Source of the DNA: a virus
Reading direction: 5' to 3' (one strand)
DNA: 64,000 bases
IMG/VR virus record: IMGVR_UViG_3300045988_094716
Location: 47,865-111,864 of that record
In this document: one piece after another, positions 15,852 to 43,482 of the stretch
Layout: each line of letters starts with the position of its first letter
Position numbering within the stretch: the stretch's first letter is position 1
Notes under the pieces: generated by a model
What the model saw: only the letters and a program-made list of their open reading frames with translations
The model's database searches: none
Told to the model about the DNA's origin: nothing
Position numbers and translations under genes: made by a program

Positions 15852-15880
15852 TTGACTTCTGAAATGGTATCCTGTATAAT
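15852..15880 (+). promoter_or_regulatory. strong sigma70-like promoter TTGACT-N17-TATAAT with GTATCCTG motif in the spacer
   Basis: perfect hexamers at consensus spacing; shares GTATCCTRTATAATATAG with the promoter at 43306. Confidence 0.65.
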
Positions 15881-15923
15881 ATAGCTATGGAACGGAGCTA
15901 CACTATTATAGAGGAGAAAAACT

Positions 15924-16343
15924 ATGGACAACAATATTGACCCAAAGGTCGGAGAGGTTTGGTTGGTCGATTTGTCCAATGCAACAGGTCATCAGCAGCG
16001 CGGTATTCGACCGTTCGTTGTGACAAGCAACAACAAGCGCAACTTCTTCAGTCCCACAATCAAAGGGAATCCGTTGTCTTCCAGAATATACAAGCGTTCT
16101 CCGGTTCATGTTCTACTCTCGAAAGAAGACTGCGATTTCCTAGAGGTTGATAGTATTGTTCTTTGTGAAGAGACTGATACACTTAACAAAGGACAGTTCA
16201 TCAAAAAGCTTGGTGTCTTGTCTGAGCGTCATATGAATATGATCGCAATGGCAAGATGCAAGGATGAACCGTTTTTACTCGCAGCATTCCTGAGCGGCGT
16301 ACAACATACCATGGAATTTCAAAATTTTGCCGCATTTGCTTGA
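15924..16343 (+). CDS. MazF/PemK-family endoribonuclease toxin-like protein (139 aa)
   Basis: GEVWLVDLSNATGHQQRGIRPFVVTSNN...SIVLCEETDTLNKGQF matches the MazF/PemK fold signature. Confidence 0.75.
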   Translation: MDNNIDPKVGEVWLVDLSNATGHQQRGIRPFVVTSNNKRNFFSPTIKGNPLSSRIYKRSPVHVLLSKEDCDFLEVDSIVLCEETDTLNKGQFIKKLGVLSERHMNMIAMARCKDEPFLLAAFLSGVQHTMEFQNFAAFA

Positions 16344-16396
16344 TTTTTTATAATGGTTAATGGTACACTACATATAATAAGAAGGAGTGTGCCACT

Positions 16397-17323
16397 ATGC
16401 TTACTGAAGAAAAGATCAAAGCTTTTGCTGAAAAGTATTCTGATAGAAGCGGTGAGTTTGTTGTATCGACGCTTAACCATGTTCTGGGTTACGAGGCTGA
16501 GCGTGGGTATGAGTTGTTTGACTTCACAAAAGATGATTTCGTAAAGATGTTTGCCAAATATAATTGGGTGAACTCGAGTCGTTCGTTTAAAAATGTGAAG
16601 TCAATAATCACAGGCTACATCAAAAGCGAAAACAAAACAAGCATGTATGATCTGGCTGACTTTTCAGAGAGCGATGTAAGCGCAGACAATATGTATGCGG
16701 ATAAATACTTTGCATCAGTTGATGAGTTTGTTGACTTCTTAAATAAGTATGAAGAGCCATATCAGATTCGTATGAACGTGATTGCTGCACTGTACTGGAT
16801 TGGCCTTACTTCTGAAGAAGTTTCTAACCTGACGATTAACGATGTCGATTTTGAATCTTGTACTGTTCTTGATAAGACAGGTGTTGATGCAAAGTTGATG
16901 GATATTATTAAGCAGTGTTATGAAATGAAACAGTATGACGCTCCCAATAAGGGAGGGTATAGGGCATTCTATGTCATGAATGGTGATTACATCATTCGTA
17001 AAACCGAGGATAGTATCGGTGCAGACAGTGACCCAAAGATGTCTGTGCATACAATTCATACCTATTTTATGCGGTTGAATAACATCCTCGAAAAAAGATA
17101 TCACTCAAAGGCTTTAGATCGAAGGCATCTAACCAGAAACGGCGAATACGTGAAGGTCTACGACTACTGTAAGAATAATCCAGAATTTAATCTTGCAGAA
17201 CTTAGTTTCGGAAATGGTAAAGACCCTCTTGCAGACATTATCGGAAGAAAGTGTAGCAAGGTTGCCTACATTAGCTTCAGACAAGGATACAAAGGTTGGG
17301 TCGAATATTTCCATAAAAATTAA
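16397..17323 (+). CDS. tyrosine-recombinase-like protein lacking the catalytic Arg (308 aa)
   Basis: VIAALYWIGLTSEEVSNLTINDVDF resembles integrase box I but has T where R is expected; no clear HxxR/Y. Confidence 0.45.
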   Translation: MLTEEKIKAFAEKYSDRSGEFVVSTLNHVLGYEAERGYELFDFTKDDFVKMFAKYNWVNSSRSFKNVKSIITGYIKSENKTSMYDLADFSESDVSADNMYADKYFASVDEFVDFLNKYEEPYQIRMNVIAALYWIGLTSEEVSNLTINDVDFESCTVLDKTGVDAKLMDIIKQCYEMKQYDAPNKGGYRAFYVMNGDYIIRKTEDSIGADSDPKMSVHTIHTYFMRLNNILEKRYHSKALDRRHLTRNGEYVKVYDYCKNNPEFNLAELSFGNGKDPLADIIGRKCSKVAYISFRQGYKGWVEYFHKN

Positions 17324-17409
17324 AAACAGGGGGCTTCGGCTCCTTGATTTTAATACGTTAGATATATAATACAGGATACTTAAAAATAGTATTTGAATGG
17401 AGAATAACA

Positions 17410-17805
17410 ATGTCTGATTTCAAGAAATTTCGTGCACTACTGCAGGATCACTTCAATGAGATGGTGAAGGATGGCGCACCTCTGTTTATCACCAATGCAG
17501 ATGAGGATAAGCTATATGACCTCTATCTGGACAGCTTCCCGGCTGGCACGAACTCCATCTTCCGTAAGCGGCGTAAGTATGATTGCTCCTACTGCCGTCG
17601 TTTCGTAAAGAACATTGGTAAGCTGGTTTCCTTTATGGATGGTCAGATGGTTACCGTCTGGGATTTCGATACCAAGTCCGACGTTTATCAGCCGGTTGTG
17701 GATGCGCTGGCTACTTATGTGAAAACCTGTGCTGTTGTGAATCCGTATTATGTTAGCCGCAATATTGATCTCCGATGGCAAGTTCGGCACGGAGGTAAAC
17801 TATGA
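17410..17805 (+). CDS. hypothetical protein, probable N-terminal part of a frameshifted gene of about 700 aa (GC-rich)
   Basis: overlaps next ORF by 56 nt in the +1 frame; shared GC-rich codon usage. Confidence 0.45.
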   Translation: MSDFKKFRALLQDHFNEMVKDGAPLFITNADEDKLYDLYLDSFPAGTNSIFRKRRKYDCSYCRRFVKNIGKLVSFMDGQMVTVWDFDTKSDVYQPVVDALATYVKTCAVVNPYYVSRNIDLRWQVRHGGKL

Positions 17806-19477
17806 GTACGATGCTGATCATAAGGCGGTTCACACCTGGGATCATTTCGCTGTCGAGATTCCTCAGCGGTTCATTGTCAATTCCTGCGATGTGACTACCA
17901 AGATGGCCGAGTGGCGTGATTCTGCTAATGTGTTCAAGCGTTCTCTGGAGGAGCTGACCATGGATGCCGTGGACACCGTACTTGAGCTGATTGCGCAGAA
18001 CAGCCTGTATCGCGGCAAGGAGTTTGAATCTCTGGTTCGTGGCTTCAAAATCGATAAGCGAGTGTATGATCGTCTGCCTGATGAAAAGAAGTCCGCTTAT
18101 GTTTGGATGGCTCCCGGCGGTGCGTCGATGAACCGGCTTCGTATTCGTAACACCGCTATCGGCACCCTTCTTATCAATTTGAGCGAAGGCATGGATGTGG
18201 ATTCCGCCGTTACCGCCTTTGAGAAGGTTGTCGCTCCTGCCAATTACAAGCGTCCCAAAGCTATTTTCACTAAGAAGATGCTGGAAGATGCACAGAAAAC
18301 CGTTACTGAGTTGGGTTACATGAACAGTCTGGGTCGCCGATTTGCCACTCTGGATGATATTACTGCCAACAATATTCTGTTCTGCAACCGCGATGCCGCT
18401 CCTCGTGTAATGGGGGCAATGAACCCGTTCGAGGCAATGGCAAAATCTATGGGCACCGATCCTAAGAAGTTCGGTCGCGCGGAGGAAATCGGCATCGACA
18501 AGTTCATCAGAGACGTGCTGCCGACTGCAACGGGCCTAGAGCTGTTTATGGAGAATCGTTTCGAGAAGAATATGATGTCTCTGATTGCTCTGCAGGATAA
18601 GGCTGCGCCGTCTATGTTCAAGTGGCCTAATGGTTTCAGTTGGGCATATACCGGCAACATGACTGACAGCCAGATTCGGGAGAACGTCAAGAATGCTGGC
18701 GGCAAAGTCGATGGCGTGCTGCGTTTCTCTATTCAGTGGAACGATAAGCCGGGCGAGTGGGATGAAAATGATGAGGATGCTCATTGCATTGAACCCGATA
18801 AGAATCACATCTATTTCGGCAGCAAGTGGCACCCTCGTACTGATGGCCGCCTGGACGTAGATATTATGCGTCCCATTCGCTATAAGGCCGCGGTCGAGAA
18901 TATCACCTGGCCTGACATCAAAAAGATGAAGGAAGGCGAGTACAGCTTCTATGTAAACTGCTTCGCTAGTCGCGGCGGCAAAACCGGTTTCCGTGCTGAA
19001 ATCGAATTCGATGGCAACATCTACTCGTTTAACTACGATAAGCCGCTGCATGGTGGTCAGAATGTAGCTGTGGCAAAGGTCACTCTGAAGGATGGCAAAT
19101 TCTCTATCAAGGAACTGCTTCCCAGTTCTACCAGCACCCGTGAAATTTGGGGTGTGAGTTCCAACCAGTTCGTACCTGTGTCTGTGGCGATGTACTCTCC
19201 GAACTACTGGGACGAACAGACCGGCAATGGCAATCGTCACTACTTCTTCATGCTCAAGGATTGCGTCAACCCCGAAAAGCCGAACGGATTTTACAACGAA
19301 TTCCTGAAGGCGGAATTGCTGCAGCATAAGCGAGTGTTTGAGGCACTTGGTTCTCAGATGGCAGTCCAGTCGGTGGATGACCAGCTGTCCGGTGTTGGTT
19401 TCTCTGAGACTCAGCACAACAGCTTTGTCGTCAAGGTACAGGGCGCAACTGAGCGAGTTCTGAGAGTGGTGATTTGA
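17750..19477 (+). CDS. hypothetical large protein (575 aa), GC-rich, probable continuation of 17410..17805
   Basis: long ORF, no RBS before its ATG. Confidence 0.5.
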   Translation: MLAAILISDGKFGTEVNYEYDADHKAVHTWDHFAVEIPQRFIVNSCDVTTKMAEWRDSANVFKRSLEELTMDAVDTVLELIAQNSLYRGKEFESLVRGFKIDKRVYDRLPDEKKSAYVWMAPGGASMNRLRIRNTAIGTLLINLSEGMDVDSAVTAFEKVVAPANYKRPKAIFTKKMLEDAQKTVTELGYMNSLGRRFATLDDITANNILFCNRDAAPRVMGAMNPFEAMAKSMGTDPKKFGRAEEIGIDKFIRDVLPTATGLELFMENRFEKNMMSLIALQDKAAPSMFKWPNGFSWAYTGNMTDSQIRENVKNAGGKVDGVLRFSIQWNDKPGEWDENDEDAHCIEPDKNHIYFGSKWHPRTDGRLDVDIMRPIRYKAAVENITWPDIKKMKEGEYSFYVNCFASRGGKTGFRAEIEFDGNIYSFNYDKPLHGGQNVAVAKVTLKDGKFSIKELLPSSTSTREIWGVSSNQFVPVSVAMYSPNYWDEQTGNGNRHYFFMLKDCVNPEKPNGFYNEFLKAELLQHKRVFEALGSQMAVQSVDDQLSGVGFSETQHNSFVVKVQGATERVLRVVI

Positions 19478-19749
19478 TGGAGCTTAAATATCATGTCGGC
19501 GATAAGGTTATGATTCGTCCGGATCTTAAAACGGGTGAAATATATAAGATGTATTCGGGGCCAATGCATGGCGGATGTATTTACAGTGTCACACCTAGTA
19601 TGAAACAGTTGGCTGGTAAATTTGCCACGATTGAAAGAGTTTGTGATAGGGGAGCTGGATATAGACTTGAAGAATATGGTTTCTCATGGACCGATGGAAT
19701 GCTGCTGCCGGCTGATTTAAATGAGTGCGTTTGTGCTTCGCTGTTGTGA
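19477..19749 (+). CDS. paralog 1 of C-terminal ECxCxSLL family
   Basis: ATG overlapping upstream TGA; ends NECVCASLL. Confidence 0.55.
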   Translation: MELKYHVGDKVMIRPDLKTGEIYKMYSGPMHGGCIYSVTPSMKQLAGKFATIERVCDRGAGYRLEEYGFSWTDGMLLPADLNECVCASLL

Positions 19750-19758
19750 GGTGGTCTG

Positions 19759-20034
19759 ATGAAATATCGATACGAACCCGAAGACGCAGTTTTCGTTCGG
19801 CCTGATTTGAAATGTGGCCTCGGTTATTGGATGCGTTCTGGGAAAAATGGAAACGAAGAACAGCTTGCAGCTGTTGGCGATATGTTGAACTTCGTAGATA
19901 AAACCGTTCATATTTCTGGATATTCTCGTAGTGGTTCTTATTACATCAAAGAAGATTCGGGACGATGGCGCTGGACTGATGAGATGTTCGTTGGTTTGGC
20001 TGGCAACGAATGCTACTGCGAATCTCTTCTGTGA
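19759..20034 (+). CDS. paralog 2 of C-terminal ECxCESLL family
   Basis: ends NECYCESLL; GAGGTGG RBS. Confidence 0.55.
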   Translation: MKYRYEPEDAVFVRPDLKCGLGYWMRSGKNGNEEQLAAVGDMLNFVDKTVHISGYSRSGSYYIKEDSGRWRWTDEMFVGLAGNECYCESLL

Positions 20035-20042
20035 GGTGCCAA

Positions 20043-20318
20043 ATGGACTATCGGTACAAAATAGGAGAGGCCGTTTGGGTTAGAGATGACCTCGAATATG
20101 TAGCCTCTTATGATATGACGTCTGGCCCTTATCCAGAAGGCAATCGTAATGTCGTGACAAATAAAATGGTCAAACTCCATGGGCAGCTTGTCCATATTAA
20201 AAATAATTCTGCTGCCGGCCAATATTATGTGGAAGAAACAAATAGTCTTCAATGGACCGACGATATGTTTGAAGGCTCGGAAAATAATAATGAATGCCGA
20301 TGCGAATCCCTTCTGTGA
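20043..20318 (+). CDS. paralog 3 of C-terminal ECxCESLL family
   Basis: ends NECRCESLL; GAGGTG RBS. Confidence 0.55.
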   Translation: MDYRYKIGEAVWVRDDLEYVASYDMTSGPYPEGNRNVVTNKMVKLHGQLVHIKNNSAAGQYYVEETNSLQWTDDMFEGSENNNECRCESLL

Positions 20319-20325
20319 GGTCGTT

Positions 20326-20613: not shown

Positions 20614-20633
20614 ATCTGAAAGGAGAAATTATT

Positions 20634-21017: not shown

Positions 21018-21087
21018 ATAGACATTTTATCGTGATTTTCGTTAAAATAATTAACGAAAATACGTTAGAATTTTGAGGTGATTTTTG

Positions 21088-21753: not shown

Positions 21754-21945
21754 TTAAGACATTTTCTTCCTCCGAAAATGCCCTGAGCGGGGCTGACAGC
21801 CGGGAAAGACCGGCAATATATGCCAAGGTGCTGCAAATGGGAGACAGGGCGAGCCCAAACCTCGCTGTGGAAACACATGCGGTTTCGAATACCGTCCTTG
21901 GCACCAGAGCCCGAACGTCCATCTATTAGATATTGGAGGCATTTT

Positions 21946-22842
21946 ATGAAAAAGATTGATAAACTTACAAAAGAAGAAATTGAGCAAGCTTTTGAGGAAA
22001 GCAAAAGTTAGGCTGCGGTTGCGGAGAAGCTTGGATATTCAAAAAATGGTGGAAGTACGAATCATGTACTTCAAGATTATGCAAAAGCGCACAATATAAA
22101 TACTTCTCATTTCACTGGGCAGGGCTAGAATAAAGGGAACGTGGATTTGTCTCGTTTTAAAAATGGAAGACGAATAAAGGATTTAAAATCCGCACTTCTT
22201 TCTATCAAACCATATAAGTGTGAATGTTGTGGAAACTCTGAATAGATGGGCAAACAGATTCCATTGCAAGTACATCATATTGACGGAAACCACATAAATA
22301 ATGAGTTAGACAATCTTCAGTTGCTTTGCCCGAATTGTCATGCACAAACTGATAATTGGTGCAAAAATAATATCGGAAAATACAAGACCGTGAGCGATAA
22401 AGATTTTCTTGATGCGTTAAAAACAACATCAACTATAAATGCTGCTCTTGAAAAAGTTGGAATTTATTATTCTGCGAGAGTGTGGTATGACAAAGCAAGG
22501 CAACTAATGATTGAAAACAACGTAACTCAAATTCCACGTGAAAAGGTTATCCGTGAGAAAAAAGAAAGAAAAAGAAGAAAAATCAAATATTGTTCAATAT
22601 GCGGAAAAGAAATGAGTCCGCGTGCAAAAGGATGTCTCTGTAAAAATTGTTTAAAAGGAAATCCTTACAGTAAACGCATTGATTTTCCTGATAAAGAGCA
22701 ATTGAGGGTAGACACAGCTTCAATGTCCTTTCAAGATGTTGGAAGAAAATATGGAGTATCAGGAAATGCAATACGTAAATGGTGCAAGCATTATGATTTA
22801 CCATACAGAAAATTAGATATGAACAGTAAAGAGGAAAATTAA
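21946..22842 (+). pseudogene. HNH endonuclease gene; a single frame interrupted only by three TAG codons. Pseudogene or amber-recoded gene
   Basis: frame open for 299 codons except TAG at 22009, 22126 and 22243; HNH core LQVHHIDGNHINNELDNLQLLCPNCH lies downstream. Confidence 0.6.
22246..22842 (+). CDS. HNH endonuclease catalytic portion (ATG-initiated segment after third TAG)
   Basis: HHIDGN...N...CPNCH HNH motif. Confidence 0.55.
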   Translation: MGKQIPLQVHHIDGNHINNELDNLQLLCPNCHAQTDNWCKNNIGKYKTVSDKDFLDALKTTSTINAALEKVGIYYSARVWYDKARQLMIENNVTQIPREKVIREKKERKRRKIKYCSICGKEMSPRAKGCLCKNCLKGNPYSKRIDFPDKEQLRVDTASMSFQDVGRKYGVSGNAIRKWCKHYDLPYRKLDMNSKEEN

Positions 22843-22855
22843 CGTTGATAAAAAA

Positions 22856-22882
22856 GAAGCTGTAAAAAAAAAATACAGCTTC
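22856..22882 (+). terminator. 9-bp perfect hairpin GAAGCTGTA-(A)9-TACAGCTTC, possible bidirectional terminator
   Basis: inverted repeat directly after HNH gene stop. Confidence 0.4.
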
Positions 22883-22889
22883 TATATAT

Positions 22890-22977
22890 GCCGCAGTGAT
22901 GGAGTGACATACATTTCCCGCTTAAACCGGGACGCCTGAAATATGGATCGTGGGTTTGAATCCCACCTGCGGCACCA
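22890..22977 (+). tRNA. tRNA-Leu (anticodon TAA), long variable arm, CCA encoded
   Basis: acceptor GCCGCAG/CTGCGGC; anticodon arm TCCCG-CTTAAAC-CGGGA; T arm GTGGG-TTTGAAT-CCCAC. Confidence 0.75.
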
Positions 22978-22980
22978 TAT

Positions 22981-23054
22981 CGAGAACGTGGTGTAATGGT
23001 AACACGCCTGCTTTGGGAGCAGGAGTTGCAGTTCAAATCTGACGTTTTCGACCA
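22981..23054 (+). tRNA. tRNA-Pro (anticodon TGG) with imperfect T-stem, possibly degenerate
   Basis: anticodon arm CCTGC-TTTGGGA-GCAGG; acceptor CGAGAAC/GTTTTCG; ends ACCA. Confidence 0.45.
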
Positions 23055-23149
23055 GTTGGTTTTCCAACATGCTTTTCATAAAATACATTTCCTATTATTC
23101 TTGGCTCTCCAAAAATGGAGCAATAGGACACAGCAAGCCAAGTATATAA

Positions 23150-23223
23150 TGCGTCGTAGCCAAGCGGTTAAGGCAGGGTCCTTTGAAGTCCCGATTGCGA
23201 AAGTTCGATTCTTTCCGGCGCAA
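23150..23223 (+). tRNA. tRNA-Gln (anticodon TTG)
   Basis: Gln-type D arm GCC-AAGCGGTTAA-GGC; anticodon loop CTTTGAA; T arm GAAAG-TTCGATT-CTTTC; acceptor TGCGTCG/CGGCGCA. Confidence 0.6.
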
Positions 23224-23230
23224 TTTATAT

Positions 23231-23315
23231 GCCACAGTGGTGGAATTGACCTACACATCTATTTTAGGGGTAGACGCCGAAAGGCTTGCGAGTTTGAGTC
23301 TCGCCTGTGGCACCA
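23231..23315 (+). tRNA. tRNA-Leu (anticodon TAG), long variable arm, CCA encoded
   Basis: acceptor GCCACAG/CTGTGGC; anticodon arm TCTAT-TTTAGGG-GTAGA; T arm GCGAG-TTTGAGT-CTCGC. Confidence 0.75.
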
Positions 23316-23421
23316 CGGTCATAGAATGGTTGCGTACCGTTTATTGATCTCCTTTGATTGCCACTATTATTCCCGGCTCGCCAGTGATGGTGCAGTAGTG
23401 CTTTGTAAGCTGGGTTTTCAT

Positions 23422-23496
23422 GCAGCGGTCGTACAACGGCTAGTACATCAGCCTTCCAAGTCGATGGAGTGGGTTCGATTCCCATTCGCTGCTCCA
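23422..23496 (+). tRNA. tRNA, probably Gly (anticodon TCC), with an A:C mismatch in the anticodon stem
   Basis: acceptor GCAGCGG/TCGCTGC; D arm GTAC-AACGGCTA-GTAC; loop CTTCCAA; T arm GTGGG-TTCGATT-CCCAT; CCA encoded. Confidence 0.5.
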
Positions 23497-23677
23497 ATCT
23501 CGTATGGGTAGGATCTTTAGCAGTCAGATCCTGCTGCGCCTGTGCGAGATACCACCCCGAAAGGGGCTAACGAAATTATCCATGTACGTTATTCTCGGCT
23601 CGCTCGAAAGAGTGCAGCGTGCCTTTGCAAGCCGAGCATCCCAGCCTAGTGATGCCAGTTGCTAGGTTGGTTCTTAT

Positions 23678-23753
23678 GCGACTGTAGTTCAATTGGCAGA
23701 GCGTCAGATTTCCAATCTGAATGTTGCGGGATCGTCCCCCGTCAGTCGCTCCA
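23678..23753 (+). tRNA. tRNA-Gly (anticodon TCC), CCA encoded
   Basis: acceptor GCGACTG/CAGTCGC; anticodon arm TCAGA-TTTCCAA-TCTGA; 76 nt. Confidence 0.75.
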
Positions 23754-23980
23754 CACGCAGCCCCTGACGCTGCACCGGTTACTCAGAGCCGAAAGGAACC
23801 TATATGTTACGACATGGTTGCCAAGAGTGATCATATTGGAACGCGACGTAGCTTGGATAGTGAGAATTAAATTCTGAGGTATACGGCTGGATAGCTTAAT
23901 GGTAAAAGCGCTCGGAAACACCGAGAGATGAGGTTCGATCCCTCCACTGGCATCGCGCCGACGAAAGTTGGCGGTTATAT

Positions 23981-24056
23981 GGAATAGTAGCTCAGTTGGT
24001 TAGCGCCGACAACTTATAATTGTCAGACGCGAGTTCAAATCTCGACTATTCCACCA
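23981..24056 (+). tRNA. tRNA-Ile (anticodon TAT, reads ATA), CCA encoded
   Basis: acceptor GGAATAG/CTATTCC; anticodon arm GACAA-CTTATAA-TTGTC; T loop TTCAAAT. Confidence 0.65.
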
Positions 24057-24197
24057 TCCCGAAAGGGCGTACATAAAATCTGCTAGAACTTTTGTTTTAT
24101 AAGCGAATGAATAATATGACGTTAATACGTCTATTGTTTTTTGCTTATTTTCGGGGATTTAGCTATATAACACAGGATACGAAAAGGAGGTGGTTTG

Positions 24198-24281
24198 GTG
24201 AAACATTATGGAAGTATTTGCGAGATTGGTGGTTCTAAGATTGAGCCTGTCTCGTGTATCACTGGTGGTTCACCTTGTTAG
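24198..24281 (+). pseudogene. C5-MTase fragment carrying the catalytic PC of motif IV (GTG start, ends GGSPC-TAG), out of frame with the rest of the gene
   Basis: ...IEPVSCITGGSPC in frame A; canonical PCQDLSIAGKR is restored only by removing 4 nt (TAGC, 24279-24282). Confidence 0.5.
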
Positions 24282-25691: not shown

Positions 25692-25692
25692 T

Positions 25693-28616: not shown

Positions 28617-28665
28617 TTTGTTTTAGCCTTAGCTATACAATACAGAATATATAAGGAGTTTAGTT

Positions 28666-35127: not shown

Positions 35128-35128
35128 T

Positions 35129-35768: not shown

Positions 35769-35771
35769 AAA

Positions 35772-36020: not shown

Positions 36021-36029
36021 GGTGAGTAT

Positions 36030-36785: not shown

Positions 36786-36787
36786 GA

Positions 36788-39700
36788 ATGTCAAGTAGTC
36801 TACACACGCACTCAAATTACAGTCTGCTAGATGGGTTCTCTTCTCCAGAAGAAAATCTAAAAAGAGCATCTGAGCTTGGTCTGAAAGCCATTGCCATTAC
36901 GGAACATGGTGAGGTAACGAGCTGGCCGTACTATTCAGAATTAAAAGACAAGTATCCGAACGTCAAACTTCTTTATGGTATCGAGGCATACGAGTGTGAA
37001 GATAGGGAAGTCAAGGATAAGAACAGCAAATATTGGCATTTAATCATTATTGCCAAGAACGAAGCTGGCCGTCAGGCAGTTAATCGTTTGTCTACGCTTG
37101 GTCATCTTCGTGGTTTTTACAGCCGTCCTCGCATTACAAAAGAGGACATCGCCAAAGAAGACACGAATAATCTGATTATTTTATCTGCTTGTTTGGTGAG
37201 TAGGTTGTCCAGAACGGATGATTATGACACTTGTGTCAAACTGGTTCAAGAGTATAAGAGCTTATTCCCCCACTATTATCTTGAGGTCCAGGCTCACGCA
37301 AACAGTGAACAGGCAAAATACAACCAGAAAATCATGCGGTTGGCAAACGATACTCATATAAAAGTAGTCGTCACAAACGATGTTCATGCAGCTACCAAAG
37401 AGGATCTTTATTATCAAGACTACTTCCTTCGTATCGCACATGATACGGAAACTGCCGCAGAGATCTATGAAGGATGTTATTTCATGTCTCGTGAAGAGCA
37501 ACATGAAGTTCTTGACGGACAGATTGGATATGATGCAGCAGAATGGTGTATCAACAACACTGATGAGGTTGCTGACTTGTGTGACTATGTGGATATGCCT
37601 TGGCACGAACCTGAACTTCCTAAAATCGAGATTCCTCCACAGTATTCCAACTCAGCAGCTTACTTGAAAGACCTTGTAAAAGAGGGATGGAAGAAACGTG
37701 GCATCGATAAGTTTGATGTAGAGAAACAGAAAATCTACCGCAAGCGTGTTGATGATGAGCTGTATGTTATTGAACAGAAAGACTTCTGCGACTACTTTTT
37801 GATTCTGGTTGATTACATCAACTGGTGCAAGCAAAATGATGTCATTGTTGGCCCTGGTCGTGGTTCTGCCGCTGGTTCTCTTGTATGTTATCTGATTGGT
37901 ATTACCCAACTTGATTCAATTAAGTACGAGCTTGACTTCGGACGATTCCTTACTATTGAGCGAAAAGACCTTCCTGACGTTGATGTGGATGTTAGCGACC
38001 GCGCAAAGGTTGTTGAGTATTTGACACAGAAGTACGGAGAAGATCGAGTAGTTCAGGTTATGAACATCGTGTACACTACTCCGGTCACTTCGATTCAAGA
38101 CGTTGGTAAAGTTCTCGGCTTTCCGTATGCTGAAATAAGAAAAATCAGCGAGAAGTTCGTTCAAAAGACATGGAAAGATTGCCTTGAAGCCAACCCGGAA
38201 GTTGCAAAAAATCCGAAGTATCAGGAATTACTTGACATCGCAAGTCACATCAATGGTCGTCCACGAGGATATGGCATCCATGCTGGTGGTGTTATCGTCT
38301 GCCGACATCCTTACTATGAATATATCGGTATCCGGCATGGTACTGACGGAGAGCACGTTATTTCCGTTGACAAGGTGATGGACGAGAAGATTGGACTTGT
38401 TAAGTTTGATATTCTTGGTGTTGCGTCGCTGGTTGCCATTGATGAAGCGAAGCGTGAGGATAATATTCCAGACTGGGAAATTGATATCAATAATCCTGAG
38501 TTTGAAAACGACAAGGCAACTTACGATTTGATTTGTTCTGGCCGGACAGATAATCTATTCCAGATTGAATCGTCCGGCATGAAAGATCTGGTTGCGCAGC
38601 TTCAGCCGAGGTCGATTGAAGAGTTGTCTGCTCTGATTGCTCTTTATCGTCCTGATGCAATGCCGTCGATTCCTACATACGTTGATTGCAAGTACCATCC
38701 TGAACATATTCACTACTTCCATCCTGATATGGAACCAATTTTCCGCAGTACCTATGGCGTGAATATCTATCAGGAACAGAGCATGAAGCTCACGAAGGTC
38801 TTTGGTGGTAGAAACGATGCCGGTGCTGATAGAATGCGTAAGTGTTTGGCAAAGAAGAAACCTGAGAAAGTCAAGGAAGAAGTCGAACTTCTTCATGATG
38901 AGATTATTGCGAATGGATACGACAAAGAGACCGCCGAGTACATTTGCAACGAGTTGTCAACGAAGGGCGGCTATGGTTTCAACGCCAGTCATTCTCAGGC
39001 ATACGCTGTTATTTGCCTTCAAACGGCATACTTAAAAGCACATCATCCGCTTGCATTCTTTAAGGCTATGCTGAACCTAAATAAAGCAAAGGTTGGTAAG
39101 GTCAACAAGATTATGGTGGATGCACGCAGCTTTGATATTCAGATTCTTCCTCCGAGTATCAATCGTTCCGGTATGGATTTCACTGTGTCAAATGGTAAAA
39201 TCCTGTTTGGCTTATCTGCTATCGGTGGTATTGGCAATACGCTTGCTGAGGCTATCATTGCAGAACGAGATAGAAATGGAAAATTCAAGGGGCTTGAAGA
39301 TTTTACAAGTCGTGTCCGTGCAACGAAAACACAGATAATTGCATTGGTTAAATCCGGTGCGATTCCTACAAAGAACAAACGAGTATTTTTGGAAAAGTAC
39401 ATTGCCAGCGGGCTGGAACAATCCGAGTTTAAGCCTGTGAACACGCTTCCTACTAAGGCGGTTTTGCTGAGTAAGTGGGGTATTGATACGGAGCATTATA
39501 AGGTTGGTAAAAAGGTTGATAAAGAAACTGTCCTACGAATCTATAACGAAAAGCGCCGTGTCGTACATGAAACTGAAAAGCTCAAGAAAAAAGAATCATA
39601 TATGGCCGAGCAATCGGAGAAGTATTTGAAAGACGAACAGTTCTGGGAGTTCCAGACGCTGCAGACGTTCATCATTGATAAGAACCCGTTTGAAAAGGCA

Positions 39701-40003
39701 TACGAGTATATTCAGGACTTTTCGGAGCTTGAAGAAGGTGATTCTTGTGTGCTTGTTGGTATTATCGCAAAGATCCAAAAGAAGAAAACAAAGACTGGTA
39801 TGCAGTTTGCATTTGTAAATCTATATTCTGGCGATGGTATCATTGAGCTGACCGTATGGCCGAGGGTCTTGTCAGATTATCAGGACTTGATTGTAAAGGG
39901 AAGTCAGGTAGCTGTGCTCGGAAAAAAGGAAGATGAATCGCACGTTATTGCGAATGACTTCAAGCCTTATAGGCAATGGCTGCATGATAGAGAGATAAGG
40001 TAA
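36788..40003 (+). CDS. dnaE: DNA polymerase III alpha subunit (DnaE-type, 1071 aa)
   Basis: N-terminal PHP domain HTHSNYSLLDGFSSPEE; typical length and organisation. Confidence 0.85.
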   Translation: MSSSLHTHSNYSLLDGFSSPEENLKRASELGLKAIAITEHGEVTSWPYYSELKDKYPNVKLLYGIEAYECEDREVKDKNSKYWHLIIIAKNEAGRQAVNRLSTLGHLRGFYSRPRITKEDIAKEDTNNLIILSACLVSRLSRTDDYDTCVKLVQEYKSLFPHYYLEVQAHANSEQAKYNQKIMRLANDTHIKVVVTNDVHAATKEDLYYQDYFLRIAHDTETAAEIYEGCYFMSREEQHEVLDGQIGYDAAEWCINNTDEVADLCDYVDMPWHEPELPKIEIPPQYSNSAAYLKDLVKEGWKKRGIDKFDVEKQKIYRKRVDDELYVIEQKDFCDYFLILVDYINWCKQNDVIVGPGRGSAAGSLVCYLIGITQLDSIKYELDFGRFLTIERKDLPDVDVDVSDRAKVVEYLTQKYGEDRVVQVMNIVYTTPVTSIQDVGKVLGFPYAEIRKISEKFVQKTWKDCLEANPEVAKNPKYQELLDIASHINGRPRGYGIHAGGVIVCRHPYYEYIGIRHGTDGEHVISVDKVMDEKIGLVKFDILGVASLVAIDEAKREDNIPDWEIDINNPEFENDKATYDLICSGRTDNLFQIESSGMKDLVAQLQPRSIEELSALIALYRPDAMPSIPTYVDCKYHPEHIHYFHPDMEPIFRSTYGVNIYQEQSMKLTKVFGGRNDAGADRMRKCLAKKKPEKVKEEVELLHDEIIANGYDKETAEYICNELSTKGGYGFNASHSQAYAVICLQTAYLKAHHPLAFFKAMLNLNKAKVGKVNKIMVDARSFDIQILPPSINRSGMDFTVSNGKILFGLSAIGGIGNTLAEAIIAERDRNGKFKGLEDFTSRVRATKTQIIALVKSGAIPTKNKRVFLEKYIASGLEQSEFKPVNTLPTKAVLLSKWGIDTEHYKVGKKVDKETVLRIYNEKRRVVHETEKLKKKESYMAEQSEKYLKDEQFWEFQTLQTFIIDKNPFEKAYEYIQDFSELEEGDSCVLVGIIAKIQKKKTKTGMQFAFVNLYSGDGIIELTVWPRVLSDYQDLIVKGSQVAVLGKKEDESHVIANDFKPYRQWLHDREIR

Positions 40004-40015
40004 GAGGATTGTAAA

Positions 40016-43000
40016 GTGGCAGATAAGAAATTTAATGAAAATATGATCCGTTGCTACATCAGGATAAAACGAGTCTTTTATCCGAAAGATGGGAGGGAGG
40101 TGGAGCCCGGCGGCTTCGCCACTTTCTCTGCCGAGGTGGTAAAAGTCAAGCAGGGAAATCCTATCATGAGCCGATACAGCGACCTTCGGCTAAAAGGCAA
40201 CGTTCCTAGCCTCGATATGGATAAAACTTATTCGTTCTGTGGTGAGTATGTTCACCATGAAAAGTTTGGTGACCAGTACAAAATCATCTATATGAATGAG
40301 TTTCAAGAGATCGCTGATCCGGAAGAACAAAAAAGCTTTCTCCGTTTTATTTTGACTGACCATCAGTTTGAGATGCTTTACGAAGCATTCGAGAATCCGT
40401 ATGAAATCATCAAGAATGGTGACATCAAGTCCCTTTGTACTGTTAGCGGTATTACGGAAGGTCGAGCACAAAAGATTGTTGACTCTTTTGAAAACAACAT
40501 TGATAACAGTGAAGCGTACACGAAACTGATTGAGTACGGTTTGACTCCCAGTGCTATTGAAAAGCTTGTTCGTCAGTATCACGGTGCAGACACTCTGGTA
40601 AGAAAAATTGAGGAGAATCCTTACGTCCTGATCGATGATGCGTATGGCATCGGCTGGAAAAAAGCTGACGCTCTTGCTTTGAATATGGGTTTAAAGCACA
40701 ATTCGCAATTCAGAATCGAAGCTTACGTCATGCATTTTCTTGCCGCCCGTGCCGAAGAAGGCAATTCTATCATTCCGGCAAACCAGACAATCAATAGCTG
40801 TATCAAGGAACTTGAATTGAACGAGGGAGACCAAGAGGTCATTAAGAGGGCACTTTTTCATCTGCATGATGTACGTGAAACACTTTGGTGGAGCGATGAC
40901 CGTCAGGAATTTGCTTTAACTAGAGTGTGGAATCTGGAAGATAGTATTGCGAAGGAAATCAAGCGTCTGGCGGATGCTCCTGTTGAGCCGATTGGTCGAA
41001 ATATGGATGCAGCAATCAATGAGGCAGAAAATGCGCTTGGTATCGAATATACAGAAGAGCAAAGAGATGCTATTAAAAAGGTATGCTCTAGCAACGTCTG
41101 TATCTTAACAGGCTACGGCGGATGCCTCGATGCAGAGATGGAGTTCTTTAATGGTGTCCAATGGAAAAAAATGAAAGATTATGTTAAGGGCGACAAAGTT
41201 CTTCAATATAATGAAAATGGGACTACAACGCTTGTTGAGCCTGAGAAATATGTAAAATTCAAATGTGAATATCTATATCACATGAAAAACAAGTCGGGTA
41301 GTATCAATCAACTATTGAGTGCAGAGCATAATGTTGTTTACTTGACCAGCAAAAACAATTTAGCTAAAATCCCAATGTGGGAGTTGTATCAAAGAAATAT
41401 TAAACGAAAGTCTGGGTTTAACGGACATTTTATAACAACGTTTAATTATGATGGTCCAGGAATCGATTTGAGCGATGCGGATATTAGACTAATGTGTGCT
41501 GTTATTTGCGATGGATCGTTTTTGAAGGATCATAAATCAGCTTGGTGTAGAGTAAACGTAAAAAAAGAGCGAAAGAAACTTCGCATGAGAAGACTTCTTT
41601 CGGAAAGTGGTAGATACTTTGATGAGCATCAGTGGAATCCAAAAGACTTAGAATATTCGAACTTTGTCTTTTACGCTCCAAGAAAAGAAAAAAGATTTAC
41701 TTCGTATTGGTATAGCTGTAATCATCATCAGCTAGAGGTAATTTGCGATGAGATTCTAAATTGGGACGGTCATGTGAAAGAGGGGAGACGGAAAGATTTT
41801 AGTACACTGATTAAAGAAACGGCAGATTTTATTCAGTTCGCATTTTCTTCTTGTGGTTATCGTTCTGTTGTACATGAATCAAATATTGAACGGCACGGTA
41901 GAATGGTCACAGAGTATAATGTTCATATTGTGCAACACTCGAATGGAAAGGTTTCTCTTATGACAAAAGGCAGTAAAAGCGATATTGATATTGTTCGTTC
42001 AAGCGATGGATATAAGTATTGTTTTACTGTTCCGTCTCATATGTTTCTGACAAGATATAATGGAAGAATTTGTGTCACAGGTAACACTGGCAAAAGTACC
42101 GTTGTCGCTGGTGTTCTAAAGGTTCTTCGTGGTAAGTCTTTTGCTCAGACTGCACTTTCTGGTCGCGCCGCAGCTCGTATGCAGGAGATTACTGGTCAGG
42201 ACGGTAAGACTATTCACCGTCTTCTTGGATATGACATCGAGAACGGTGGGTTTGTTCACGATAAGGACAATCCTCTGGATGAGGACATTATCATTCTGGA
42301 TGAGACCTCTATGGTTGGTGCTCAATTGTTTTACGATTTGATTCAGGCAATCGAAACTGGCAAGCGATTCATCATGATTGGTGATGACGGCCAGCTTGAG
42401 AGTATCGGTATGTGTAACATCTTCAAGGATATGCTTGCATCTAAGGTTGTTCCTGTGGCTCGTTTGACTAAGATCCATCGTCAGGCAGCCAAGTCTGCAA
42501 TTATCACGGAGAGCATTAAGGTTCGTAACGCTACGCAGTTGGTTCCTTATGGCTGGGCTGGCAGTGAGATTCGTGGTGAACTTCGTGATTTGGAGCTTGA
42601 TATCTATAAAGACGCAAGTGAGTCATTCAATCACATCATCAATCAGTACCGTACCTTATATAATAAGGTAGGGAATGATAGTTCGAAGATTCAGATTGTA
42701 CTTCCACAGAAGCTGCGTGGCAGTATCTGCACCTACGAAGTCAATAATGCTATTCAGGAAATTGTGAATCCGAGTCGTGGTCAAGCAGAAGCAAAAGTCA
42801 CAATCTATGGTGATGGCAAGGATAGGGTGTATACTCTGCGTGAGGGCGATCAGGTCATCATCAACAAGAACAACTATGAGCTTCACACATACAATCTCAA
42901 GACAAATAAAAAGGAAGAGAAGTGTCCGGTGTTCAATGGGAACCGTGGCATTATCCGAAAGATTGAAAGTAGTTTTATTCTGGTTAATTTTGACCAGTGG

Positions 43001-43309
43001 GGAACGATCTTCATCCCTCATTACTTTGGCGGAAACAATATCTGGGCAACACTTGAGCTTGCTTATGCTTTGAGTTGTCATAAACTGCAGGGCAGTGAAG
43101 CTCCGTATGTGATTGTTGGTATGGACAACTCTGCGTACTTGATGCTGACGAGAGAATGGCTCTATACGGCCATCACTCGTGCAAAGAAGTATTGTATGAT
43201 TTGCGCCGAAACTCACGCTCTTGATCGGGCTGTAAAGACTTCGAGAGTTCCATATAAGCGGACGTTCTTGAAGGAATTTTTACGGAAAGAATTTTCAGAA
43301 AAGCATTGA
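40016..43309 (+). CDS. RecD-like SF1 DNA helicase (RecD2-type with HhH) interrupted by an intein (GTG start)
   Basis: split Walker A ILTGYGG/TGKST flanking the intein; C-terminal SF1 helicase motifs (LQGSEAPYVIV, TAITRAKK). Confidence 0.7.
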   Translation: MADKKFNENMIRCYIRIKRVFYPKDGREVEPGGFATFSAEVVKVKQGNPIMSRYSDLRLKGNVPSLDMDKTYSFCGEYVHHEKFGDQYKIIYMNEFQEIADPEEQKSFLRFILTDHQFEMLYEAFENPYEIIKNGDIKSLCTVSGITEGRAQKIVDSFENNIDNSEAYTKLIEYGLTPSAIEKLVRQYHGADTLVRKIEENPYVLIDDAYGIGWKKADALALNMGLKHNSQFRIEAYVMHFLAARAEEGNSIIPANQTINSCIKELELNEGDQEVIKRALFHLHDVRETLWWSDDRQEFALTRVWNLEDSIAKEIKRLADAPVEPIGRNMDAAINEAENALGIEYTEEQRDAIKKVCSSNVCILTGYGGCLDAEMEFFNGVQWKKMKDYVKGDKVLQYNENGTTTLVEPEKYVKFKCEYLYHMKNKSGSINQLLSAEHNVVYLTSKNNLAKIPMWELYQRNIKRKSGFNGHFITTFNYDGPGIDLSDADIRLMCAVICDGSFLKDHKSAWCRVNVKKERKKLRMRRLLSESGRYFDEHQWNPKDLEYSNFVFYAPRKEKRFTSYWYSCNHHQLEVICDEILNWDGHVKEGRRKDFSTLIKETADFIQFAFSSCGYRSVVHESNIERHGRMVTEYNVHIVQHSNGKVSLMTKGSKSDIDIVRSSDGYKYCFTVPSHMFLTRYNGRICVTGNTGKSTVVAGVLKVLRGKSFAQTALSGRAAARMQEITGQDGKTIHRLLGYDIENGGFVHDKDNPLDEDIIILDETSMVGAQLFYDLIQAIETGKRFIMIGDDGQLESIGMCNIFKDMLASKVVPVARLTKIHRQAAKSAIITESIKVRNATQLVPYGWAGSEIRGELRDLELDIYKDASESFNHIINQYRTLYNKVGNDSSKIQIVLPQKLRGSICTYEVNNAIQEIVNPSRGQAEAKVTIYGDGKDRVYTLREGDQVIINKNNYELHTYNLKTNKKEEKCPVFNGNRGIIRKIESSFILVNFDQWGTIFIPHYFGGNNIWATLELAYALSCHKLQGSEAPYVIVGMDNSAYLMLTREWLYTAITRAKKYCMICAETHALDRAVKTSRVPYKRTFLKEFLRKEFSEKH
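41123..42085 (+). mobile_element. intein (321 aa) with LAGLIDADG-type homing endonuclease, inserted in the helicase P-loop
   Basis: begins with Cys after ILTGYGG, ends ...NGRICVTGN followed by Thr; removal restores ILTGYGGTGKST; LMCAVICDGSF LAGLIDADG-like block; AT-richer than host gene. Confidence 0.65.
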
Positions 43310-43334
43310 CAATTATATTTGTATCCTATATAAT
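43306..43334 (+). promoter_or_regulatory. sigma70-like promoter TTGACA-N17-TATAAT containing GTATCCTATATAATATAG
   Basis: perfect -35/-10 hexamers; near-identical to the promoter at 15852. Confidence 0.6.
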
Positions 43335-43402
43335 ATAGTTATAAAAAGTCTCCATCCCGGAGGCTTAAAATTCTCTCTTTAGGTACATAACACAGGATAC
43401 GA

Positions 43403-43442
43403 GAAAGAGAAGGCTTGCTCGTAACGACAAGCCTTTCTTTAT
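43403..43442 (+). terminator. rho-independent terminator (10-bp GC-containing stem AGAAGGCTTG / CAAGCCTT then TTCTTT)
   Basis: stable hairpin followed by T-run. Confidence 0.6.
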
Positions 43443-43482
43443 TAGCTATAACTATATAACACAGGATACGCAAGGAGGCTTT

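What the first reader, a model, noticed from the sequence alone, without database searches (positions are those of the whole stretch)
15867..43469. Recurrent 16-18 nt motif (C)TATATAACACAGGATAC upstream of genes, inverted within the two strongest promoters
Near-identical copies occur in the forward form at 17362-17379 (ATATATAATACAGGATAC), 24163-24180 (CTATATAACACAGGATAC), 43385-43400 and 43452-43469, each 13-30 nt upstream of an RBS. A degenerate copy lies at 28633-28650. The reverse complement, GTATCCTRTATAATATAG, forms the spacer and -10 region of two textbook promoters: TTGACT-N17-TATAAT at 15852 and TTGACA-N17-TATAAT at 43306. Chance recurrence of an 18-mer in 64 kb is negligible. The motif could be a phage-specific promoter extension or regulator binding site. 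CAGGATAC is a candidate operator half-site used in both orientations.
Basis: seen in the sequence. Interest (0 to 1): 0.65.

Follow-up and report, generated by a model that had tools for sequence, protein, structure and literature searches.

The report
Repressor boxes of a gut phage
The recurring sequence is a real 21-base, one-directional DNA box found only in front of early and replication genes of an uncultured SPbeta-like gut phage, and it is most likely where the phage's integrase-shaped master repressor, encoded next to one of the boxes, binds to keep the virus dormant.

Summary
The motif is a sharply bounded, non-palindromic 21-bp box, T-A-R-C-T-A-Y-A-T-W-A-Y-A-C-A-G-G-A-T-A-C. It has 7 copies in the window (0.16 expected by chance), all in the 6.9% of the window that is non-coding.

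The window is the early/replication half of an uncultured ~130-kb SPbeta-like phage. Its relatives encode a YonO-like RNA polymerase. The window encodes, at 16397-17323, a homologue of the SPbeta/phi3T master repressor MrpR/YopR/SroF (hhalign 98%, E 1.7e-13). The seven best PDB fold matches are all SroF/YopR/MrpR. That repressor family binds as a monomer to long asymmetric boxes scattered over early promoters.

The box lies across the spacer and -10 of the promoter of the repressor's own operon. It heads the replication, ligase and yonO-like operons. It is absent from 1.65 Mb of late-module DNA in 80 relatives. Where the repressor has diverged to 35% identity, a different sequence occupies the box position.

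Best reading: an SPBRE/Phi3TRE-type operator set (confidence about 0.68). A phage RNA polymerase promoter is the main rival.

Two points are unresolved. It is not known whether the forward boxes, which have no -35 and sit just after terminators, are also promoters. The reason box pairs keep a fixed 38-bp spacing is also unknown.

The parts
15867..15887 (-). Box (inverted), TAGCTATATTATACAGGATAC. It spans the spacer and -10 of the promoter of the toxin/repressor operon.
15852..15880 (+). SigmaA-type promoter TTGACT-N17-TATAAT, driving the PemK/MazF-like gene and the repressor gene.
   Evidence: sequence
15924..16343 (+). PemK/MazF-like toxin gene, first gene of the box-controlled operon.
   Evidence: PF02452, E 3.8e-19. 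The same pairing with the repressor is seen in relatives.
16397..17323 (+). MrpR/YopR/SroF-family integrase-fold repressor (308 aa), the proposed box-binding protein.
   Evidence: hhalign against SPbeta YopR: 98.0%, E 1.7e-13. AF2 model pLDDT 89.6. Top 7 Foldseek PDB hits are SroF/YopR/MrpR, E 2e-8 to 2.4e-7. Pfam MrpR_N_CB and MrpR_C_cat. Recombinase Arg I is replaced by T138.
17327..17353 (+). Intrinsic terminator closing the repressor operon.
   Evidence: fold of 17318-17357 gives dG -16.7 kcal/mol, z -5.9
17359..17379 (+). Box (forward), TAGATATATAATACAGGATAC, 30 nt before the ATG at 17410.
24118..24140 (+). Terminator-like hairpin plus T-run after the tRNA array.
   Evidence: (fold of 24110-24150: dG -9.0, z -3.9)
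24160..24180 (+). Box (forward), the consensus copy TAGCTATATAACACAGGATAC. It ends 5 nt before the RBS and 17 nt before the GTG at 24198.
28630..28650 (+). Degenerate box (forward), TAGCTATACAATACAGAATAT, at the head of the replication operon. The orthologous sites in relatives keep CAGGATAC.
43306..43334 (+). SigmaA-type promoter TTGACA-N17-TATAAT (12 of 12 matches).
   Evidence: sequence
43321..43341 (-). Box (inverted), TAACTATATTATATAGGATAC, across the spacer and -10 of the 43306 promoter. It is the left member of an inverted pair.
43346..43366 (+). Small hairpin inside the 38-bp spacer of the box pair.
   Evidence: fold of 43342-43378: dG -11.1, z -4.6
43380..43400 (+). Box (forward), TAGGTACATAACACAGGATAC, the right member of the pair, 38 bp from its partner. 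It is followed by a terminator, not a gene.
43410..43441 (+). Terminator hairpin between the two forward boxes.
   Evidence: fold of 43404-43447: dG -16.3, z -3.8
43449..43469 (+). Box (forward), TAACTATATAACACAGGATAC. It ends 4 nt before the RBS and 13 nt before the ligase ATG at 43483, and starts 69 bp after the previous box.

Best explanation
The 21-bp box TARCTAYATWAYACAGGATAC is the operator ('repeated element') of this phage's master repressor. It is the functional counterpart of SPBRE in SPbeta and Phi3TRE in phi3T.

The repressor is the 308-aa integrase-fold protein encoded at 16397-17323, a member of the MrpR/YopR/SroF family. By analogy with SroF, one monomer wraps around one asymmetric box and reads almost every base pair. 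That would explain the length, the lack of symmetry and the sharp edges of the box.

Proposed action:
- At strong host-type (sigmaA) promoters the box lies inverted across the spacer and -10 (15867 and 43321 here; site E just left of the window in relatives), or brackets the promoter (pair G/F upstream of the yonO-like operon). A bound repressor would shut out host RNA polymerase.
- One of these promoters drives the repressor's own operon, which implies autoregulation.
- The forward boxes sit between a terminator and the RBS at the heads of the early/replication operons (17359, 24160, 28630, 43449). There the bound clamp would either cover a weak -35-less TATAAY promoter or block read-through transcription in the lysogen.

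Shown: the box, its distribution, the promoter overlaps and the homology of the protein. Inferred: that this protein binds this box, and that binding represses.
For: 1. The box is real, 21 bp, asymmetric and sharply bounded. All copies are intergenic.

2. The window protein is a homologue of MrpR/YopR. hhalign gives 98.0%, E 1.7e-13 over 264 columns. The AF2 model has pLDDT 89.6. Its seven best PDB matches are phi3T SroF-DNA (E 2e-8, TM 0.64), YopR, MrpR and SroF-Sar; true recombinases start at E 1.3e-4. Pfam MrpR_N_CB hits 19 of 19 family members, and MrpR_C_cat is precomputed for the homologues. The catalytic Arg I is a Thr.

3. The literature shows that MrpR/SroF binds a long non-palindromic element at about 10 early promoters (PMC10516654). 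It binds as a monomer that reads 24 of 26 bp (bioRxiv 10.1101/2025.11.27.690993).

4. The distribution is the same as SPBRE. Boxes occur in the promoter of the repressor operon, upstream of the yonO-like gene and operon, and at the heads of the replication, ligase and methylase operons. There are no boxes in 80 loci (1.65 Mb) of the late/structural module.

5. SPBRE copies extracted from NC_001884 show the same layout: terminator, box, RBS. Some abut the RBS and one gene has two tandem boxes.

6. Relatives whose repressor is 73-91% identical keep the two outer blocks of the box. A relative with a 35%-identical repressor has identical synteny but an unrelated sequence at the box position.

7. 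The box position relative to sigmaA promoters varies (spacer/-10, +1..+21, +38). That is normal for operators and not for promoter elements.
Against: There are no binding or expression data; the link between protein and box is circumstantial.

The four forward boxes in the window have no recognisable -35 and follow genuine terminators. The genes behind them therefore lack an obvious host promoter, which is what one would expect if the box itself were a phage-specific promoter.

SPBRE copies are all co-oriented with their genes, whereas here several boxes are inverted. The strictly kept 38-bp gap in box pairs is not explained by a purely monomeric binder. The box has no sequence similarity to SPBRE or Phi3TRE.

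Other DNA-binding proteins of the phage were not surveyed.
Confidence: 0.68

Rival explanations
1. The box is the promoter of the phage-encoded YonO-like single-subunit RNA polymerase, or of another phage-specific transcription factor. Forward copies would start transcription of middle/replication operons just after terminators. Inverted copies overlapping sigmaA promoters would act as decoys that switch off host-polymerase transcription.
For: A 21-bp asymmetric, sharply bounded element immediately upstream of the RBS, after terminators and without a -35, is the classic look of a phage RNA polymerase promoter. Relatives encode a YonO-like polymerase with an ADFDGD motif and a Pfam RdRP match at E 3.7e-15. 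No YonO promoter sequence has been defined (PMC5467207).
Against: In SPbeta, YonO transcribes only the late operon, from one start site. Here the late module carries no box in 1.65 Mb from 80 genomes, including the region just upstream of the first late ORFs. The box precedes the polymerase gene itself. Inverted copies E, C and 15867 point at no gene and would make antisense RNA. One box lies at +1..+21 of a strong sigmaA promoter.
Confidence: 0.12
2. The box is bound by a different phage or host regulator, not by the MrpR-like protein. It would be an operator or activator site of an unidentified DNA-binding protein.
For: The assignment of the binding protein rests on analogy and proximity only. 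Most small genes of the window have no annotation.
Against: The known binding mode of the MrpR/SroF family fits the box length and asymmetry. The box lies in the promoter of that protein's own operon and directly behind its terminator. The box disappears where that protein has diverged.
Confidence: 0.1
3. The box works in a Q-like antitermination switch or at the RNA level. Either a factor loaded at the box inside the promoter lets polymerase read through the hairpin in the leader, or the transcribed forward box is a translational-operator or processing site next to the RBS.
For: Two promoters with an inverted box (43306; site E in relatives) are followed within about 10-35 nt by a hairpin and then a forward box. 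This recalls lambda PR'-qut-tR' (own knowledge). The forward boxes abut the RBS. The inverted and forward copies can pair in a read-through RNA (dG -17.6, z -3.1).
Against: No Rfam family overlaps the boxes. The G/F pair has the promoter, not a hairpin, in the spacer. Box 15867 has no hairpin or partner downstream. Only 7 bp of the putative long hairpin pair perfectly. The inverted copies lie upstream of the start site of their own promoter.
Confidence: 0.05
4. The box pairs are recombination sites (an invertible promoter switch) for the tyrosine-recombinase-like protein.
For: Two 21-bp inverted repeats flank a 38-bp segment that contains a promoter (pair G/F). A recombinase-fold protein is encoded nearby.
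Against: A 38-bp spacer is far too short for inversion. In 80 uniformly oriented loci the spacer is always in the same orientation. Most boxes are solitary. The protein lacks Arg I and is closest to the non-recombinase repressors.
Confidence: 0.01

Closest known systems
SPBRE / MrpR (YopR, SroF) of Bacillus prophage SPbeta
   Same: The repressor has an integrase fold and is homologous (98% hhalign; top fold hits). Roughly a dozen copies of a long non-palindromic element lie in intergenic regions at the heads of early operons. These include the repressor's own operon and the operon that holds the YonO-type polymerase gene. The element is absent from the late operon. Boxes often sit just after a terminator and just before an RBS, and tandem boxes occur 64-69 bp apart.
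   Different: The box sequences share no similarity. SPBRE copies are all co-oriented and most are part of a repeated -35/-10 promoter unit. Here the box occurs in both orientations, forms inverted pairs with a fixed 38-bp gap, and its forward copies lack a -35. The repressor is only about 14-17% identical. It sits behind a phage-encoded PemK/MazF-like toxin gene rather than in a six-gene sro operon. The host is a gut anaerobe, not Bacillus. No arbitrium genes were looked for.
Phi3TRE / SroF of phage phi3T (PDB 9rd5, 9rgl)
   Same: It is the best structural match to the window protein (E 2e-8, TM 0.64 to the DNA-bound form). It binds as a monomer that reads 24 of 26 bp of an asymmetric box, which fits a 21-bp box with sharp edges.
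   Different: The box differs (CAGTAATTTTATTTTTATTCTTAATG, an A-tract). The Sar antirepressor and LexA control were not examined here.
C1 repressor and its dispersed asymmetric operators in phage P1 (own knowledge, not tested)
   Same: It is a monomeric repressor that recognises an asymmetric operator of about 17 bp. The operators are scattered at many sites over a large phage genome, some singly and some as inverted pairs overlapping promoters.
   Different: The protein fold is unrelated and there is no homology. This is a functional analogy only.
Promoters of phage single-subunit RNA polymerases (T7-type; YonO promoter undefined)
   Same: The length (about 21-23 bp), the asymmetry, and the position right after terminators and right before genes.
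   Different: Here there are inverted copies inside host-type promoters, no copy before the late genes, and a copy before the polymerase gene itself.

Membership tests
SroF/MrpR repressor with repeated-element operator (SPbeta-like phages) | Repressor with a two-domain integrase/tyrosine-recombinase fold, homologous to MrpR/YopR/SroF | tested here: met
   hhalign 98.0%, E 1.7e-13. AF2 pLDDT 89.6. Top 7 PDB matches are SroF/YopR/MrpR. Pfam MrpR_N_CB and MrpR_C_cat.
SroF/MrpR repressor with repeated-element operator (SPbeta-like phages) | Recombinase catalytic set degenerate (not an active recombinase) | tested here: inconclusive
   Arg I (GLR in Tn1549 Int and other integrases) is T138 here and nearly invariant in the family. 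An HxxR-like H244..R247 is retained. The other catalytic positions could not be mapped reliably.
SroF/MrpR repressor with repeated-element operator (SPbeta-like phages) | Long non-palindromic box in many copies dispersed over intergenic regions of the early genome half | tested here: met
   21-bp box, 7 copies in the window and about 12-13 site types per genome in relatives, all intergenic.
SroF/MrpR repressor with repeated-element operator (SPbeta-like phages) | Box at the repressor's own operon and at the yonO-type operon; none in the late operon | tested here: met
   own promoter; yonO-like operon; late module, zero hits in 1.65 Mb.
SroF/MrpR repressor with repeated-element operator (SPbeta-like phages) | Box sequence related to SPBRE or Phi3TRE | tested here: not met
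   The best SPbeta match has 5 of 21 mismatches and is not at a SPBRE site. SPBRE and the phi3T box also differ from each other, so this feature does not define the family.
SroF/MrpR repressor with repeated-element operator (SPbeta-like phages) | Physical binding of the repressor to the box, and repression of the adjacent promoter | not testable with these tools
   Needs EMSA, ChAP-seq or reporter assays.
SroF/MrpR repressor with repeated-element operator (SPbeta-like phages) | Arbitrium (aimR/aimP/aimX) and a Sar antirepressor under LexA control | not tested
   Not searched for.
Host sigmaA (sigma-70-type) promoter | -35 and -10 hexamers at 16-18 bp spacing | tested here: met
   Met only for the two inverted copies (15852-15880, 11 of 12; 43306-43334, 12 of 12). 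Not met for the forward copies: there is no conserved -35, the best spacer is 15 nt at 17344, and the TATAAY core is variable.
Phage-encoded RNA polymerase promoter (YonO type) | Sits upstream of, and co-oriented with, the genes that depend on that polymerase (the late operon in SPbeta) | tested here: not met
   No box in the late module or upstream of its first ORFs. Three box classes point away from any gene.

The most novel reading that the evidence does not exclude
The forward 21-bp box is the first recognisable promoter of a YonO-type (two-barrel, single-chain) phage RNA polymerase, or a dual element that serves as both repressor operator and -35-independent phage promoter. The inverted copies would switch off host-polymerase promoters by occupancy.
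Probability: 0.12. Interest if true: 0.8.

Novelty: new member of a known kind. Interest (0 to 1): 0.45.

Why it matters
The integrase-fold, monomeric repressor with genome-wide repeated boxes was described only in 2023-2025, and only for Bacillus SPbeta/phi3T phages.

This window suggests that the same lysogeny logic operates in an abundant, uncultured family of ~130-kb human-gut phages. There are hundreds of IMG/VR contigs, and repressor homologues lie on contigs of up to 784 kb. These phages use a different box.

The finding gives a concrete protein-DNA pair to test. It also provides a second, very different recognition sequence for studying how this fold reads DNA. Finally, it shows a variant architecture: inverted boxes across the -10, pairs with a fixed 38-bp gap, and a phage-borne MazF-like toxin in the repressor operon.

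Tried and rejected
- **Chance or low-complexity artefact.** Rejected by shuffles.
- **Known RNA family.** None overlaps the boxes.
- **Close cultured relative for annotation transfer.** None found; the best DNA polymerase identity is 33-35%.
- **Direct sequence hits of the repressor to the PDB and to YopR.** These failed with the single sequence and with the shallow alignment. The first AF2 model was poor (pLDDT 58.7). Only the deep profile built from the 1.84-billion-protein search gave significant homology and a confident model.
- **Similarity of the box to SPBRE, or anything box-like in the SPbeta yonK-yonN gap where the YonO start site lies.** None found.
- **Newer literature on YonO promoters.** Nothing found.
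- **Inverton idea.** Rejected.
- **TAG recoding of late genes, suggested by a CUA-anticodon tRNA in relatives.** No signal.
- **Defining the box of a 27%-identical relative (L287) with generic repeat finding.** This gave only noise. A targeted look found one tandem TAYRCTAACAATCAT pair behind the repressor terminator, which is too little to call.
- **Host assignment.** The single exact hit in species-representative genomes is a MAG labelled Faecalibacterium. This is weak, because the phage G+C is about 41%.
Full report
**1. Observation**

The pattern TATAAYACAGGATAC with up to two mismatches occurs six times in the window. Four copies are on the + strand (17365, 24166, 43386, 43455) and two on the - strand (15867, 43321). 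Shuffles give 0.16 expected, and none of 100 reached six.

A position-weight scan recovers the same six copies plus the degenerate copy at 28630-28650. Nothing scores between 10 and 28 bits, so the class is discrete.

The two inverted copies lie inside TTGACT-N17-TATAAT (15852-15880) and TTGACA-N17-TATAAT (43306-43334).

I collected 132 unique instances from the window and from related contigs. They show a unit of exactly 21 bp, T-A-R-C-T-A-Y-A-T-W-A-Y-A-C-A-G-G-A-T-A-C. Information content falls to background at both edges (the selection criteria favour the two outer blocks, but not the flanks).

All seven window copies lie in the 6.9% of the window not covered by + strand ORFs.

**2. What the window is**

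All genes are on the + strand. The window encodes:
- a DnaE-type DNA polymerase (36788-40003);
- a helicase/exonuclease (40016-43309);
- an ATP-dependent ligase (43483-44796);
- NrdD (50753-52954);
- a PemK/MazF-like toxin (15924-16343);
- a weakly 'integrase'-like protein (16397-17323);
- eight tRNA genes (21822-24056).

There is no close cultured relative. The nearest DNA polymerases, at 33-35% identity, are from Alicyclobacillus phage KKP_3916 and Brevibacillus phage Sundance.

A scan of IMG/VR for the motif returned more than 70 loci from contigs of about 125-139 kb that share 80-96% DNA identity with the window.

In those genomes, about 20 kb to the left of the window and on the other strand, lies a 927-aa protein. 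It has an ADFDGD motif and a Pfam RdRP match (E 3.7e-15), which makes it a YonO-type two-barrel RNA polymerase. Beyond it come a tRNA array and a late module. The late module contains a virion structural protein and an internal integrase, as in SPbeta.

The family is therefore SPbeta-like in size and layout.

**3. The protein next to the box**

Homologues of the 308-aa protein carry the precomputed Pfam domains MrpR_C_cat and, in some, MrpR_N_CB. The local Pfam copy finds MrpR_N_CB in 19 of 19 family members, with a best E-value of 4.4e-6; the window copy itself scores E 0.0022, which is below the curated cut-off.

The single sequence and the shallow family profile found nothing significant in the PDB or against SPbeta YopR. 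A profile search of 1.84 billion representative proteins then gave 73 relatives.

With a 40-sequence alignment of these:
- hhalign matches SPbeta YopR/MrpR at 98.0% probability, E 1.7e-13, over 264 columns;
- AlphaFold gives a confident model (pLDDT 89.6, pTM 0.72);
- the seven best Foldseek PDB matches are all phi3T SroF (DNA-bound form, E 2e-8, TM 0.64), SPbeta YopR/MrpR, or the SroF-Sar complex;
- genuine recombinases (Xer, lambda Int, Cre) appear only from E 1.3e-4.

Where integrases have the box-I arginine (GLR in Tn1549 Int), this family has a nearly invariant Thr138.

**4. What is known about that family**

MrpR is the master repressor of SPbeta. [quoted passage not shown]

The phi3T orthologue SroF binds as a monomer that encircles an asymmetric 26-bp box and reads 24 of its base pairs. 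Multiple boxes are distributed over distant parts of the genome (bioRxiv 10.1101/2025.11.27.690993).

I extracted the SPBRE copies from NC_001884. They read tAGACAAATACAAAtAATATGTATATAAT and usually follow an annotated stem-loop. They lie 24-120 nt before the start codon. Some abut the RBS (yopM, yopV), some lie upstream of a separate promoter (aimR, yonT), and yonX has two copies 64 bp apart.

**5. How the box is distributed here**

In the window:
- One box lies across the spacer and -10 of the promoter of the toxin/repressor operon (15867).
- One lies directly behind that operon's terminator, at the head of the next operon (17359).
- One lies behind the tRNA array, ahead of a methyltransferase-like gene (24160).
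- A degenerate one heads the replication genes (28630).
- Three lie ahead of the ligase operon: 43321 (inverted, in the promoter), 43380 and 43449 (forward, separated by a terminator).

The hairpins that precede the forward boxes fold well. dG is -16.7, -9.0 and -16.3 kcal/mol, and no shuffle folded as well.

Relatives add further sites:
- pair E/D just left of the window start, where TTGACA-N17-TATTCT overlaps the inverted box, followed by a small terminator and then a forward box before a variable gene;
- pair G/F bracketing a TTGAAY-N17-TATAAT promoter, so that the forward box covers +1 to +21 of the operon leading to an Ant-like gene and the yonO-like gene;
- a further box 21 nt upstream of the RBS of the yonO-like gene.

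Across all loci there are 107 inverted-then-forward pairs. The gap is 38 bp in 86 of them, 39 in 16, 40 in 4 and 37 in 1. There are no convergent pairs.

In 80 loci (1.65 Mb) covering the late module there is not one box. The 10 kb downstream of the yonO-like gene also has none.

This is the SPBRE pattern: early operons, the repressor operon and the polymerase operon carry the box, and the late operon does not.

**6. Conservation and co-variation**

Relatives with repressors of 73-78% identity keep the two outer blocks TAGCTA and ACAGGATAC. They vary the AT-rich middle, for example TAGCTACGTGACACAGGATAC. Selection therefore acts on the whole box, not on the -10-like core.

Positions 10 (W) and 12 (Y) are T in the copies that lie inverted in promoters. 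This is what makes the + strand read TATAAT.

A contig whose repressor is 35% identical has the same arrangement (repressor, terminator, then the same downstream gene), but an unrelated sequence sits where the box would be. In a 27%-identical relative, which also has a PemK toxin gene before the repressor and SPbeta YorF/YorH/DnaB/Pol III genes after it, a different short tandem repeat occupies that place. This last point is suggestive only.

**7. Interpretation**

The most economical reading is that the box is the operator of the MrpR/SroF-like repressor.

Shown:
- the box and its statistics;
- its overlap with strong host-type promoters;
- its restriction to the early modules;
- the homology and fold of the adjacent protein.

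Inferred:
- that this protein binds this box;
- that binding represses;
- that it binds as a monomer.

The weak point is the forward boxes. They have no -35; the best candidate is TTGATT with a 15-nt spacer at 17344. They also follow real terminators. The operons behind them therefore either start at a weak -10-only promoter inside the box (TATAAY at box positions 7-12, giving 5'UTRs of about 13-30 nt) or depend on read-through. In the latter case a DNA-encircling repressor would be a roadblock that insulates lytic genes from the repressor operon, which is transcribed in the lysogen.

I cannot decide between these two options. The fixed 38-bp spacing of pairs, kept in three unrelated spacer contexts, is also unexplained.

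**8. Rivals**

- **Promoter of the YonO-like polymerase.** This fits the look of the forward boxes, and no YonO promoter has been defined. It fails on the late operon, on the inverted copies that face no gene, on the copy ahead of the polymerase gene itself, and on the box at +1 of a sigmaA promoter.
- **A different binding protein.** This cannot be excluded.
- **Q-like antitermination or an RNA-level role.** This fits only some sites, and no Rfam family matches.
- **An invertible switch.** The 38-bp spacer and the constant orientation in 80 oriented loci exclude it.

**9. Verdict**

The feature is real and highly non-random. The 'half-site' and 'promoter extension' details are not supported.

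The feature is a new member of a recently described kind, the SPBRE/Phi3TRE-SroF system. It has a new recognition sequence and a somewhat different architecture, and it occurs in an abundant uncultured gut phage lineage.

Confidence in the operator reading is about 0.68. Interest is moderate, at 0.45.

Noticed in passing
window 17410-19477: The phrog_1735 gene is split into two overlapping ORFs in different frames (17410-17805 and 17750-19477). In relatives L056, L100 and L104 the two parts are contiguous in one frame, giving a single ORF of about 690 aa. The window copy therefore carries a frameshift, either a real pseudogene or an assembly error.
   Followed up: partly
window 21822-24056: There is an array of eight tRNA genes (Leu x3, Pro, Gln, Gly x2, Ile) just upstream of the box at 24160. 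Several mechanical ORFs listed over this stretch are probably spurious.
   Followed up: partly
window 15924-16343 (also L121 8679-9104, L122 4134-4553, L287 9506-9922): A PemK/MazF-like toxin gene sits directly upstream of the MrpR-like repressor gene. The pairing is kept even in a relative whose repressor is only 27% identical. phi3T is reported to act on the host MazE-MazF system (PMC10769878), so a phage-borne MazF-like gene in the repressor operon may be meaningful.
   Followed up: no
window 15407-15465: Two tandem sigmaA-type promoters, TTTACA-N16-TAATAT and TTGACT-N16-TATAAT, each have the repeated stretch AAAAAGATGT(G)TATAATATAT and no box. They lie upstream of a 114-aa gene that precedes the box-controlled promoter. 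They may provide box-independent transcription into the repressor operon.
   Followed up: no
L065 4907-7690; L126, L111 equivalents: Relatives encode a 927-aa YonO-like two-barrel RNA polymerase (ADFDGD motif, Pfam RdRP E 3.7e-15, phrog_8308) about 20 kb left of the window on the opposite strand. A box lies 21 nt upstream of its RBS.
   Followed up: partly
L126 11125-12633: A second tRNA array lies between the yonO-like module and the late genes. It includes a tRNA with anticodon CUA (an amber suppressor; ARAGORN labels it Pyl). Treating TAG as a sense codon barely lengthens ORFs in the late module, so there is no sign of recoding.
   Followed up: partly
L126 about 12783-12808 and 12897-12922: The 26-nt stretch CCTCTCAACGATGCGTATCATGGTGG occurs twice, about 115 nt apart, immediately upstream of the first late ORF. 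This corresponds to the region where SPbeta has its YonO start site and an unannotated RNA. It could be a late promoter or a structured RNA.
   Followed up: no
all related loci; window 43321-43400: Inverted box pairs keep a gap of 38 bp (86 of 107 pairs; range 37-40) although the spacer holds three unrelated sequences (a promoter, or one of two hairpins). The tandem ligase boxes are always 69 bp start to start. No explanation was found.
   Followed up: partly
L121 12936-14225; L126 16043-17197: Mobile-element genes lie inside relatives of the phage: a Cas12f1/TnpB-like gene in the early region of one, and an IS-type transposase (phrog_506) in the late module of another.
   Followed up: no
L285 (CAKSWG010000006.1): The only exact match to the 21-bp box among species-representative genomes is a 75.9-kb contig of a MAG labelled uncultured Faecalibacterium sp. 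The phage G+C (about 41%) does not fit that genus well, so the host remains open.
   Followed up: no
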